Part shown: one piece after another, positions 23,676 to 51,740 of the stretch
Numbering within the stretch: the first letter of the stretch is position 1
Layout: every line of letters begins with the position of its first letter
Assembly: GCF_003018255.1 (NCBI RefSeq)
Contig: NZ_CP027440.1
DNA from: Escherichia coli
Lineage (GTDB): Bacteria; Pseudomonadota; Gammaproteobacteria; Enterobacterales; Enterobacteriaceae
Length of the DNA: 64,000 nt
Strand: one strand, 5' to 3'
Program-made: the position numbers and the translations under genes
The notes under the pieces: model-generated
The model's database searches: none
What the model was told of the DNA's origin: nothing
Seen by the model: only the letters and a program-made list of their open reading frames with translations

Positions 23676-23696
23676 TCAAGTTTCAGCTGATGTTGA

Positions 23697-23728
23697 AAAT
23701 CCCGGTCAGAAGATCGGGATTTTTTTTG
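23697..23728 (+). terminator. Rho-independent terminator after secF (end of the queA-tgt-yajC-secDF cluster)
   Basis: Hairpin atcccggtc-agaa-gatcgggat followed by TTTTTTTT. Confidence 0.8.
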
Positions 23729-23804
23729 ATGTAAGGTGATTGCGAAAATCCCCGCATCTTGGGAAACTGCGCGTAACCCTACATTTCATCCAGGTAACTT
23801 TTTC

Positions 23805-24152
23805 ATGGCTATCATCCCAAAAAACTATGCGCGGTTAGAAAGCGGCTATCGCGAAAAAGCATTAAAAATCTATCCGTGGGTCTGCGGTCGCTGTTCCCGC
23901 GAGTTTGTTTATTCCAACCTGCGTGAACTTACCGTTCACCACATTGATCACGACCATACTAATAACCCGGAAGATGGCAGTAACTGGGAATTACTTTGTC
24001 TCTATTGCCACGATCATGAGCATTCGAAATACACCGAAGCGGATCAGTATGGTACGACCGTTATCGCAGGGGAAGATGCGCAGAAAGATGTCGGTGAAGC
24101 GAAGTACAACCCATTCGCTGATTTGAAAGCGATGATGAACAAGAAGAAGTGA
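23805..24152 (+). CDS. yajD: HNH-endonuclease-family protein YajD (115 aa)
   Basis: Internal ATG at 23805; MAIIPKNYARLESGYREKALKIYPWVCGRCSREF...HHIDHDHTNN...LLCLYCHDHEH: CxxC ... HH ... N ... CxxH HNH zinc-finger nuclease motif. Confidence 0.92.
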   Translation: MAIIPKNYARLESGYREKALKIYPWVCGRCSREFVYSNLRELTVHHIDHDHTNNPEDGSNWELLCLYCHDHEHSKYTEADQYGTTVIAGEDAQKDVGEAKYNPFADLKAMMNKKK

Positions 24153-24181
24153 TAAAAAATGCCGGATATGAAATCCGGCAT
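24153..24181 (-). terminator. Terminator hairpin between convergent yajD and tsx (best fit for tsx on the minus strand)
   Basis: gccggat-atgaa-atccggc palindrome; on the bottom strand it is followed by a U-run (plus-strand AAAAAA at 24154-24159). Confidence 0.65.
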
Positions 24182-24189
24182 TCTCACAA

Positions 24190-49504: not shown

Positions 49505-49534
49505 CTTGAAATATGGTGATGCCGTACCCATAAC
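49505..49534 (+). promoter_or_regulatory. sigma32-type heat-shock promoter of clpP
   Basis: -35 CTTGAAA (49505-49511), 15-bp spacer, -10 CCCATAAC (49527-49534); close to the sigma32 consensus CTTGAAA-N13-15-CCCCATNT. Confidence 0.55.
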
Positions 49535-51663: not shown

Positions 51664-51720
51664 CAAAAAGGGGGGATTTTATCTCCCCTTTAATTTTTCC
51701 TCTATTCTCGGCGTTGAATG
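51664..51720 (-). ncRNA. sraA: Candidate small RNA SraA (psrA3) in the clpX-lon intergenic region
   Basis: From memory, a small RNA is annotated between clpX and lon on the opposite strand in K-12; what the sequence shows is a bidirectional terminator at the expected 3' end. Coordinates are approximate. Confidence 0.35.
51666..51698. terminator. Bidirectional hairpin terminator in the clpX-lon spacer
   Basis: aaaagggggga-tttt-atctcccctttt: G-rich stem flanked by A-run upstream and T-run downstream, so it can terminate transcripts from either strand. Confidence 0.7.
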
Positions 51721-51740
51721 TGGGGGAAACATCCCCATAT
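51714..51740 (+). promoter_or_regulatory. sigma32 heat-shock promoter of lon
   Basis: -35 TTGAAT (51714-51719), 13-bp spacer, -10 CCCCATAT (51733-51740): near-perfect match to the sigma32 consensus, about 85 bp upstream of the lon ATG. Confidence 0.75.

What the first reader, a model, noticed from the sequence alone, without database searches (positions are those of the whole stretch)
23805..24152. Stand-alone HNH nuclease-motif protein YajD directly downstream of the secDF terminator
The 115-aa product has a complete HNH/zinc-finger signature (CGRC ... HHIDHDH ... N ... CLYCHDHEH) but no fused targeting, immunity or mobility domain. It sits as a monocistronic unit between the secF terminator and the tsx terminator. 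Small solitary HNH proteins are usually phage- or toxin-associated, so a conserved core-genome copy with unknown substrate is a reasonable target even though the gene itself is long annotated.
Basis: partly seen in the sequence, partly recalled or inferred. Interest (0 to 1): 0.3.

Follow-up and report, generated by a model that had tools for sequence, protein, structure and literature searches.

The report
Conserved solitary HNH nuclease gene yajD
This is yajD, a long-annotated core gene of E. coli that encodes a small zinc-finger HNH nuclease with an intact active site under very strong selection; its target is still unknown, and the one new lead found here is that in several other bacteria it sits next to the ribosome-rescue gene arfB.

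Summary
Window 23805-24152 (+) is E. coli yajD: 115 aa, Pfam HNH, NCBIfam 'YajD family HNH nuclease'. It lies between the secF terminator and a hairpin shared with convergent tsx. The gene is already catalogued, and no function or solved structure was found.

New here:
- The zinc cysteines and HNH residues (H45, H46, N60, H69, H73) are kept in 96-98% of 344 relatives. dN/dS is about 0.02. The gene is present in 5424 of 5426 complete E. coli genomes.
- It is not phage-borne.
- Its location is not conserved. 80 gammaproteobacterial species give at least 44 different neighbourhoods, so the secDF position means nothing functionally.
- The only specific neighbour that recurs is arfB (ribosome rescue). 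It is adjacent and co-oriented in five lineages of uncultured Gammaproteobacteria, but never in enterics.

Best reading (about 0.4): an active, partner-recruited, metal-dependent nicking endonuclease acting on DNA. Main rival (about 0.2): a nuclease acting on stalled ribosomes together with ArfB. Both are inferences; no activity has been measured.

The parts
23695..23732 (+). Intrinsic terminator of secDF: a hairpin at 23695-23724 followed by a run of T.
   Evidence: Terminator scan found 13 pairs and a 4-nt loop. The RNA fold is -23.7 kcal/mol, z -4.85.
23733..23804 (+). yajD upstream region. It has a weak Shine-Dalgarno (AGGT, 9 nt before the ATG) and no recognisable sigma-70 or sigma-32 promoter.
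   Evidence: The promoter scan found 0 sites. The sigma-32 consensus search did not hit here with up to 3 mismatches. DNA homology to other genera starts only at about 23762-23805.
23805..24152 (+). yajD coding sequence, 115 codons plus stop.
   Evidence: Translation. Pfam HNH. NCBIfam YajD equivalog. Annotated yajD in RefSeq E. coli genomes.
23826..23870 (+). Codons 8-22: the N-terminal helix carrying the conserved Y15-R16-x-x-A19-L20-K21 motif, which precedes the zinc knuckle.
   Evidence: AlphaFold2 model places a helix at 8-22. Y15, R16 and L20 are at least 92% conserved.
23883..24023 (+). Codons 27-73: the C4 zinc site (C27, C30, C65, C68) and the beta-beta-alpha-Me catalytic core (H45, H46, N60, H69, H73), plus the family-specific loop D48-x-x-H51-x-N-N-P-x-D-G-S-N-W-E.
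24099..24143 (+). Codons 99-113: the conserved C-terminal motif A-[TK]-x-N-P-F-A-D-L-K-x-M-M-x-K-K. The family consensus is T-H-x-P-F-A-x-L-x-x-L-L-K-K. It is predicted to be a short amphipathic helix that follows a variable, low-confidence linker.
   Evidence: A99, N102, P103, F104, A105 and L107 are invariant in 18 gammaproteobacterial sequences. The motif is kept in relatives of 40-60% identity. P103, F104 and L107 are present in 78-82% of 344 relatives, with gaps counted as absent. The model has a helix at 107-113 with pLDDT about 74-80.
24158..24182 (.). Bidirectional terminator hairpin shared by yajD (+) and convergent tsx (-).
   Evidence: 10-bp perfect inverted repeat with a 5-nt loop. 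It folds on both strands. The yajD terminator was confirmed in vitro (PMC12207403).

Best explanation
yajD encodes a catalytically intact, zinc-stabilised HNH (beta-beta-alpha-Me) endonuclease. It is a vertically inherited housekeeping protein, not a phage, toxin or defence gene.

Most likely mechanism (inferred):
- It is a one-metal-ion nicking enzyme that acts on DNA.
- H46, at the end of strand 1, is the general base.
- H45 and H69 (perhaps with H73) hold the catalytic metal.
- N60 braces the loop.
- C27, C30, C65 and C68 bind a structural zinc.

The protein is only 13 kDa and mildly acidic, and it has no DNA-binding domain. It therefore probably has little affinity for substrate on its own. 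The conserved C-terminal P-F-A-x-L peptide would bring it to its site of action by docking on a partner protein or assembly. This would also explain how a free nuclease is tolerated in the cytoplasm without an immunity protein.

The expected substrate is damaged or irregular DNA, as for the small Geobacter enzyme Gmet_0936.

What is shown: the fold prediction, motif conservation, selection, distribution and contexts. What is inferred: catalysis, the substrate and recruitment by the tail.
For: - Active-site geometry. The residue spacing C-x2-C ... HH ... 14 ... N ... 5 ... C-x2-C-H equals that of Gmet_0936 (C38, C41, D53-H54, N68, C73, C76-N77). Gmet_0936 nicks DNA weakly with Mn2+ and prefers depurinated DNA (PMC3765158).
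- Conservation. Catalytic and zinc residues are kept in 96.5-98.3% of 344 relatives.
- Selection. dN/dS is about 0.02. The gene is in 5424 of 5426 E. coli genomes.
- Expression. RNET-seq reads and a pause site lie within yajD (PMC10268239), and a 3' end maps at its terminator (PMC12207403).
- Recruitment. The C-terminal motif is conserved across the family. The core has pI 5.9 and the whole protein 6.1.
- Hints of a DNA role. Salmonella ychN/yajD and cbpA/yajD double mutants are H2O2-sensitive, although the single mutant has no phenotype (PMC3878590). In Metallibacterium the gene is divergent from recQ and 2 kb from ligA. One 761-bp contig carries an AlkZ-like fragment fused to YajD.
Against: - No nuclease activity has been measured for any YajD. 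This is based on the open-access literature, where only three relevant papers mention the gene.
- The single deletion has no phenotype for growth, stress or virulence in Salmonella.
- The DNA-repair hints are single instances.
- The only specific neighbour that recurs across lineages is arfB, a ribosome-rescue gene, not a DNA-repair gene.
- The partner of the C-terminal motif is unknown. The motif could instead pack on the core or bind membrane.
- Some beta-beta-alpha-Me nucleases, such as Serratia nuclease and EndoG (established knowledge), also cut RNA, so the fold does not fix the substrate.
Confidence: 0.4

Rival explanations
1. YajD works in translation quality control together with ArfB. 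It would be recruited to stalled ribosomes and cut the mRNA (or another ribosome-bound RNA). That produces the truncated, channel-empty complexes that ArfB can release.
For: yajD and arfB are adjacent and co-oriented in five lineages of uncultured Gammaproteobacteria, each with different outer flanks:
- L082: PLD | yajD-arfB with an ATGA overlap | NYN.
- L145: PMT_2(-) | yajD, 22 nt, arfB | MscK-like.
- L148: phaC-like | yajD, 235 nt, arfB.
- L176 and L158: trxC, arfB, 84 nt, yajD | hemH(-).
- L169: arfB, 60 nt, yajD.

Other points:
- All four neighbours scanned (L082, L145, L148, L176) pass the NCBIfam ArfB equivalog at 179-184 bits against a cut-off of 100. The L169 neighbour was identified only by tblastn.
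- Both gene orders occur, and the loci fall in three separate parts of a YajD tree.
- In six-frame clustering of 167 loci, ArfB is the only non-promiscuous family that recurs across different contexts.
- An NYN RNase-like gene is adjacent in L206 and lies just beyond arfB in L082. RNase HI is adjacent in L218 and L192.
- The physiological role of E. coli ArfB is described as unclear (PMC8012679).
- The enzyme that cleaves A-site mRNA was unknown as of 2013 (PMC3834316 abstract).
Against: - The adjacency was seen in only 4 of 80 metagenome loci (3 distinct arrangements) plus 2 lineages from look-ups, and in none of 80 species of Enterobacterales, Vibrionales and Alteromonadales.
- Within the clade of L082, L145 and L148 it is patchy; L094, L151 and L162 lack it.
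- With about 3 independent events the enrichment is suggestive but does not clearly survive correction for all possible neighbour families.
- Every solved structural neighbour is a DNase or a non-nuclease.
- The YajD tail is amphipathic, unlike the long basic tails of ArfB and SmpB.
Confidence: 0.2
2. yajD is, or descends from, a self-mobile free-standing HNH gene of the homing-endonuclease type. It keeps relocating in the chromosome by cutting and repair, and its nuclease serves its own spread.
For: - 80 species give at least 44 neighbourhood groups, 28 of them singletons.
- Examples: ydjL-chitinase | yajD | yeaC-msrB in Citrobacter; fadE | yajD | mtnK in Pectobacterium; phoU | yajD in Shewanella; on large plasmids in Pantoea.
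- DNA homology between genera is confined to the ORF plus, in most loci, at most 14 upstream nt (up to about 43 nt in a few).
- The gene is compact and carries its own terminator.
Against: - It is single copy: a median of 1 place per E. coli genome.
- dN/dS of about 0.02 over the whole length, including the tail, is not the pattern of decaying selfish endonucleases.
- Identity falls with taxonomic distance (96% Enterobacter, 84% Yersinia, about 75% Vibrio, about 70% Shewanella), as expected for vertical descent.
- There are no flanking repeats or target duplications.
- It is absent from phages.
Confidence: 0.07
3. YajD is not a nuclease in vivo. It would be a Zn/His-rich adaptor or metal-handling protein built on an HNH-like scaffold, as DotN/IcmJ is.
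For: - The protein has 7 His and 4 Cys in 115 residues.
- It is acidic, the deletion has no phenotype, and it needs no immunity gene.
Against: The complete catalytic set H45-H46, N60, H69 and H73 is kept in 96.5-98.3% of relatives. Such conservation would not be needed for a purely structural scaffold. Scaffold-only HNH relatives typically lose these residues (established knowledge of degenerate HNH domains).
Confidence: 0.08

Closest known systems
Gmet_0936 (Gme HNHE) of Geobacter metallireducens, PDB 4H9D
   Different: There is no detectable sequence relationship; it is not found by phmmer or a profile search of the PDB. Its last metal ligand is Asn (N77), whereas YajD has His (H69). It lacks the YajD N-terminal Y-R-E-x-A-L-K helix motif and the C-terminal P-F-A-x-L motif.
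Phage T4 endonuclease VII (PDB 1E7D, 1EN7)
   Same: It is the best sequence match among solved nucleases (E 0.008), sharing H-x-D-H-D-H and L-L-C-x-x-C. It has a C4 zinc site and a beta-beta-alpha-Me core.
HNH domain of human ZRANB3 (PDB 5MKW)
   Different: It is a domain of a large eukaryotic helicase-like protein, with only 20% identity. No hub-binding motif of a known bacterial type could be recognised in YajD.
Phage terminase-associated HNH endonucleases (GVE2 HNHE, PDB 5H0O; zinc-ribbon HNHEs)
   Different: Those genes sit next to cos sites and terminase genes in phages (PMC3592412, PMC5304195). Full-length YajD is absent from 50,697 phage genomes and present in 1 of 2.9 million viral contigs.
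DotN/IcmJ of Legionella (PDB 5X1H)
   Different: It is an adaptor of the type IV secretion coupling complex, not a nuclease. YajD keeps the full catalytic HNH set.

Membership tests
HNH / beta-beta-alpha-Me nuclease superfamily (Pfam PF01844) | The sequence matches the family HMM above the curated threshold. | tested here: met
   48.4 bits against a cut-off of 21.4, E 1.1e-12, residues 27-75 covering profile positions 1-47 of 47.
HNH / beta-beta-alpha-Me nuclease superfamily (Pfam PF01844) | A general-base His at the end of strand 1, a bracing Asn about 14 residues later, and a metal-ligand His or Asn about 9 residues after that at the start of the helix. | tested here: met
   H46, N60 and H69 have exactly 14 and 9 residue spacing. 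They are conserved in 98.3%, 98.3% and 96.8% of 344 relatives.
HNH / beta-beta-alpha-Me nuclease superfamily (Pfam PF01844) | A two-strand hairpin plus helix fold held by a C4 zinc site. | tested here: met
HNH / beta-beta-alpha-Me nuclease superfamily (Pfam PF01844) | Divalent-metal-dependent cleavage of nucleic acid. | not testable with these tools
   No biochemical report on YajD was found. This needs purified protein.
YajD family (NCBIfam NF008448, equivalog) | A full-length match above the equivalog cut-off. | tested here: met
   210.3 bits against a cut-off of 87, residues 2-113 on profile positions 2-113 of 113.
T4 endonuclease VII family (junction-resolving HNH) | Significant similarity over the whole protein, including the C-terminal dimerisation and junction-binding domain. 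| tested here: not met
Colicin / contact-dependent toxin HNH DNases | The nuclease is fused to translocation or receptor domains and is followed by a cognate immunity gene. | tested here: not met
   The protein has a single domain. The downstream neighbour is a terminator and convergent tsx. Neighbours differ in nearly every genus.
Anti-phage defence HNH effectors (ZorE, Cap5, retron or Septu HNH) | A match to a defence-protein model over its length, with the other genes of the system alongside. | tested here: not met
   PADLOC hits cover only the HNH part of ZorE (profile positions 213-269 of 282, E 4e-7). No Zorya, CBASS or retron genes are nearby.
Phage terminase-associated HNH endonucleases | Encoded in a phage or prophage next to terminase or cos. 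| tested here: not met
   None of 50,697 phage genomes has a match covering at least 80% of YajD. 1 of 2.9 million viral contigs has a full-length relative, at 48% identity.
Free-standing homing endonuclease genes | Sporadic distribution, several copies or presence/absence polymorphism, signs of horizontal spread, and relaxed selection. | tested here: not met
   Near-universal and single copy in E. coli. dN/dS is about 0.02. Identity tracks taxonomy. The variable chromosomal position is the only trait that fits.

The most novel reading that the evidence does not exclude
YajD is the missing nuclease partner of the ArfB ribosome-rescue route. It would be recruited through its conserved C-terminal peptide to stalled ribosomes and would cut the mRNA at or near the A site or entry channel. 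That creates the truncated complexes ArfB can resolve. This would give a function both to a 'y-gene' under extreme purifying selection and to E. coli ArfB, and it would be the first HNH nuclease shown to act in translation quality control.
Probability: 0.15. Interest if true: 0.8.

Novelty: already known. Interest (0 to 1): 0.38.

Why it matters
yajD is one of the E. coli genes with a clear enzyme signature but no known job. Its sequence is held almost constant (dN/dS about 0.02; 83-96% protein identity across Enterobacterales), yet deleting it gives no phenotype. That means an important condition or redundancy is being missed.

A free HNH nuclease kept in the cytoplasm without an inhibitor also raises the question of how it is restrained and targeted. 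The conserved C-terminal peptide found here is a concrete handle for pull-downs.

The recurrent pairing with arfB, if it reflects function, would tie the protein to ribosome rescue. Two gaps remain in that field: the physiological role of E. coli ArfB and the identity of the A-site mRNA nuclease.

If the pairing is coincidental, YajD is most likely a minor DNA-repair nickase and of modest interest.

Tried and rejected
- Functional link to secDF or tsx: rejected. Only 4 of 80 species loci (5 counting the downstream-only E. albertii locus L002), plus Salmonella, share this position.
- Sigma-32 promoter upstream of yajD (seen by eye as CTTGGGA-N12-CCCTACATTT): rejected. The consensus search with up to 3 mismatches and 13- or 14-nt spacers does not hit there. 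No sigma-70 site was found either.
- Phage, plasmid or defence origin: rejected. The plasmid hits are Pantoea megaplasmids and mislabelled chromosomes.
- C2H2 zinc-finger resemblance of residues 24-51 (PDB hits at E 0.003-0.01): rejected. The Cys/His spacing does not fit, and the region is the HNH zinc knuckle plus strand 1.
- T4 endo VII register (D48 and H49 as active site): rejected, because H49 is only 62% conserved.
- AlkZ-YajD fusion P0128: a single 761-bp contig, probably a gene remnant or a gene-calling artefact. The other long database entries show only HNH.
- NYN and RNase HI as recurrent neighbours: too few independent cases, and part of the NYN cluster was spurious antisense translation of high-GC DNA.
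- The first AlphaFold2 run, on 18 sequences, failed (pLDDT 41). It was repeated with 140 sequences.
- My first greedy ORF-based neighbour clustering missed genes in high-GC loci. It was replaced by six-frame clustering.
- Three context look-ups landed on contigs under 1 kb.
- The literature search on 'b0410' returned only unrelated reference numbers.
- The afdb50 fold library was unavailable.
- Rfam found nothing above gathering score around the gene.
- No flanking repeats suggest a mobile element.

Full report
**What is there.** The window is the E. coli queA-tgt-yajC-secD-secF-yajD-tsx-yajI-nrdR-ribD-ribE-nusB-thiL region. A 701-nt stretch around the finding is 100% identical to several E. 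coli chromosomes. It is present in 5424 of 5426 complete genomes, annotated 'yajD: HNH nuclease YajD'.

Pfam finds one domain, HNH (residues 27-75, 48.4 bits against a cut-off of 21.4). The NCBIfam equivalog 'YajD family HNH nuclease' matches end to end (210 bits against 87).

A longer 138-aa reading from GTG 23736 exists and explains some 138-139-aa database entries. Homology between genera starts at or within about 40 nt upstream of the ATG and never reaches GTG 23736, so 115 aa is the real product.

**Transcription signals.**
- The secF terminator is a 13-bp hairpin followed by a run of T at 23695-23732.
- The hairpin at 24158-24182 folds well on both strands and serves convergent yajD and tsx.
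- The yajD side was validated by in vitro termination in PMC12207403.
- RNET-seq shows a NusG-suppressed pause inside yajD, so the gene is transcribed (PMC10268239).
- No sigma-70 or sigma-32 consensus promoter is found in the 72-nt leader.

'Monocistronic' is therefore likely but not shown. Rfam finds nothing above threshold, and no repeats suggest a mobile element.

**Is the nuclease signature maintained?** Yes.
- In 344 relatives that cover the core, taken without any motif filter, C27, C30, C65 and C68 are kept in 97-98%.
- In the same set, H45 and H46 are kept in 98.3%, N60 in 98.3%, H69 in 96.8% and H73 in 96.5%.
- The spacing H46-14-N60-9-H69, with C-x2-C pairs on both sides, equals that of the crystallised Geobacter enzyme Gmet_0936 (D53-H54, N68, N77; C38, C41, C73, C76; PMC3765158).
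- An AlphaFold2 model built on 140 diverse family members (mean pLDDT 83) puts H46 at the end of strand 42-46, N60 just before strand 61-65, and H69 at the start of helix 66-82.
- No solved structure belongs to the family itself.
- The weak sequence match to T4 endonuclease VII is probably out of register, because H49, its supposed catalytic counterpart, is only 62% conserved.

**Selection and distribution.**
- Protein identity to E. coli is 83-96% across Enterobacterales, while DNA identity is 75-83%.
- dN is 0.03-0.11 with synonymous sites saturated, so dN/dS is about 0.02.
- The family is compact: only 640 clusters at 50% identity among 1.84 billion representatives reach E<=1e-3.
- Where organisms are named, members are almost all Gammaproteobacteria, plus a Myxococcota MAG.
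- It is not phage-borne. There is no full-length match in 50,697 phage genomes and one in 2.9 million viral contigs.
- PADLOC gives only a generic HNH hit.

First, after a variable, low-confidence linker there is a conserved C-terminal motif. In E. coli it reads A99-K-Y-N-P-F-A-D-L-K-A-M-M-N-K-K; the family consensus is T-H-x-P-F-A-x-L-x-x-L-L-K-K. It is invariant at six positions in 18 gammaproteobacterial sequences and is kept in relatives of 40-60% identity. The model predicts a short helix there. With an acidic core (pI 5.9) and no DNA-binding domain, this peptide is the best candidate for a targeting or partner-binding element. I could not match it to a known bacterial hub-binding motif; that judgement rests on my own knowledge, not on a test.

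Second, the chromosomal position is not conserved.
- Among 80 species of Enterobacterales, Vibrionales and Alteromonadales, only Escherichia, Kluyvera and Pseudocitrobacter have secF-yajD-tsx. Salmonella has it too.
- The 80 loci fall into at least 44 neighbourhood groups.
- Citrobacter has ydjJKL-chitinase | yajD | yeaC-msrB-gapA. Pectobacterium has gmhA-fadE | yajD | mtnK. Yersinia has yajD | CYTH cyclase-dld. Shewanella has pstB-phoU | yajD. In Pantoea the gene lies on large non-mobilizable plasmids.
- Homology between genera stops at the ORF borders.
- The gene is usually separated from its neighbours by at least 60 nt.

**Search for a partner gene.** Distant homologues show equally varied surroundings:
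- recQ (divergent) and ligA in Metallibacterium;
- usp | histidine kinase;
- peptidase C92 | glmS-glmU;
- a PG-binding protein | GDSL lipase.

One neighbour does recur: arfB, the release-factor-like peptidyl-tRNA hydrolase that rescues stalled ribosomes. It is adjacent and co-oriented in five contexts:
- L082-L086: yajD stop and arfB start overlap in ATGA.
- L145-L147: 22-nt gap, with quite different outer flanks.
- L148: 235-nt gap.
- L158 and L176: order reversed, 84-nt gap.
- L169: order reversed, 60-nt gap.

All four neighbours scanned (L082, L145, L148, L176) pass the NCBIfam ArfB equivalog at 179-184 bits against a cut-off of 100. The L169 neighbour was identified by tblastn only. In a YajD tree the arfB-linked loci sit in three separate places. 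In six-frame clustering of the flanks of 167 loci, ArfB is the only family recurring across different contexts that is not a large paralogous family such as LysR, ABC ATPase or GGDEF-EAL.

Against this:
- The adjacency was seen in 4 of 80 metagenome loci (3 distinct arrangements) and in 0 of 80 enteric, vibrio and alteromonad species.
- It is patchy even within its clade.
- With about three independent events it does not clearly survive correction for all possible neighbours.
- NYN-domain and RNase HI neighbours were seen too, but in too few independent cases.

**Literature.** In the open-access library only three relevant papers mention yajD.
- The Salmonella deletion has no growth, stress or virulence phenotype. 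The ychN/yajD and cbpA/yajD double mutants are H2O2-sensitive (PMC3878590).
- No paper links HNH and ArfB.
- A 2021 review states that the physiological role of E. coli ArfB is unclear (PMC8012679).

**Interpretation.** With high confidence, yajD is a real, expressed, vertically inherited housekeeping gene for a catalytically competent zinc-finger HNH endonuclease.

How it works is inferred. My best reading (about 0.4) is a low-affinity, one-metal nicking enzyme for DNA that depends on its C-terminal peptide to be delivered to its substrate, by analogy with Gmet_0936 and ZRANB3. This would also explain why it needs no immunity protein.

The main rival (about 0.2) is a role with ArfB on stalled ribosomes, which is the only hypothesis backed by recurrent gene neighbourhood. 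A selfish homing origin (about 0.07) fits the wandering position but not the single copy, the strict purifying selection or the taxonomy-congruent divergence. A non-catalytic adaptor like DotN (about 0.08) is hard to square with the conserved catalytic set. The remaining probability is for something not considered.

**Novelty and score.** The gene, its family and its HNH nature are already catalogued, so the finding itself is 'already known'. What is new is the set of comparative observations: the C-terminal motif, the nomadic locus, the very low dN/dS and the arfB pairing. Together they turn an unannotated function into testable hypotheses. Interest is moderate (0.38). It would rise sharply if the ArfB link were confirmed.

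Noticed in passing
window 23736-24152: An alternative in-frame GTG start gives a 138-aa ORF. It begins right after the run of T that ends the secF terminator. Several database proteins of 138-139 aa (P0004, P0006, P0022) appear to use it, but conservation between genera begins at or just upstream of ATG 23805 and does not reach the GTG.
   Followed up: partly
window 23685-23703 and 23734-23752: A 19-nt imperfect direct repeat (79% identity). The 5' arm of the secF terminator (AGCTGATGTTGAAAATCCC) recurs just downstream of the terminator (AGGTGATTGCGAAAATCCC). Its meaning is unknown.
   Followed up: no
window 49505-49533 and 51713-51740: Two matches to the sigma-32 promoter consensus, each with 2 mismatches. 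One lies about 80 nt upstream of the ClpP-like ORF (49613) and the other about 40 nt upstream of the Lon-like ORF (51779). Both are consistent with known heat-shock promoters. The total number of matches in the window is not above chance.
   Followed up: partly
L004 4561-5961 and L006 (Pseudocitrobacter): A 466-aa ORF is inserted between secF and yajD in Pseudocitrobacter. This shows that even the 'E. coli-type' junction is a site of gene gain.
   Followed up: no
L229 5786-5893 (Salmonella record CP082688.1): A record labelled as a plasmid is a linear chromosomal fragment with queA-tgt-yajC-secDF-yajD-tsx. An Ldr-family type I toxin gene is annotated between yajD and tsx.
   Followed up: no
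L228 (Pantoea vagans pVag2) and 60 other Pantoea plasmid records: In Pantoea, yajD (about 94% identical) lies on large non-mobilizable plasmids. Its neighbours are an RND efflux gene and an HTH regulator on one side and a 2-phosphosulfolactate phosphatase gene on the other.
   Followed up: partly
L082 6930-7787; L206 3466-3954: NYN-domain (predicted RNase) genes lie next to the yajD-arfB pair (L082) or directly after yajD (L206). A related NYN gene in L219 carries a C-terminal region that looks like a LOTUS/OST-HTH domain (judged by eye, not tested) and lies 1.4 kb from yajD. There are too few cases to judge.
   Followed up: partly
L144 111-683 (761-bp metagenome contig): One predicted protein (P0128, 190 aa) joins an 86-residue fragment of an AlkZ-like DNA glycosylase to a full YajD. 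It may be a gene remnant, an assembly chimera or a true fusion.
   Followed up: partly
window 23874-23957 (YajD residues 24-51): The zinc knuckle plus strand 1 gives weak matches to eukaryotic C2H2 zinc fingers (SALL4, ZBTB17; E 0.003-0.01). The spacing does not fit a C2H2 finger. The match probably reflects the shared beta-beta-alpha topology.
   Followed up: yes
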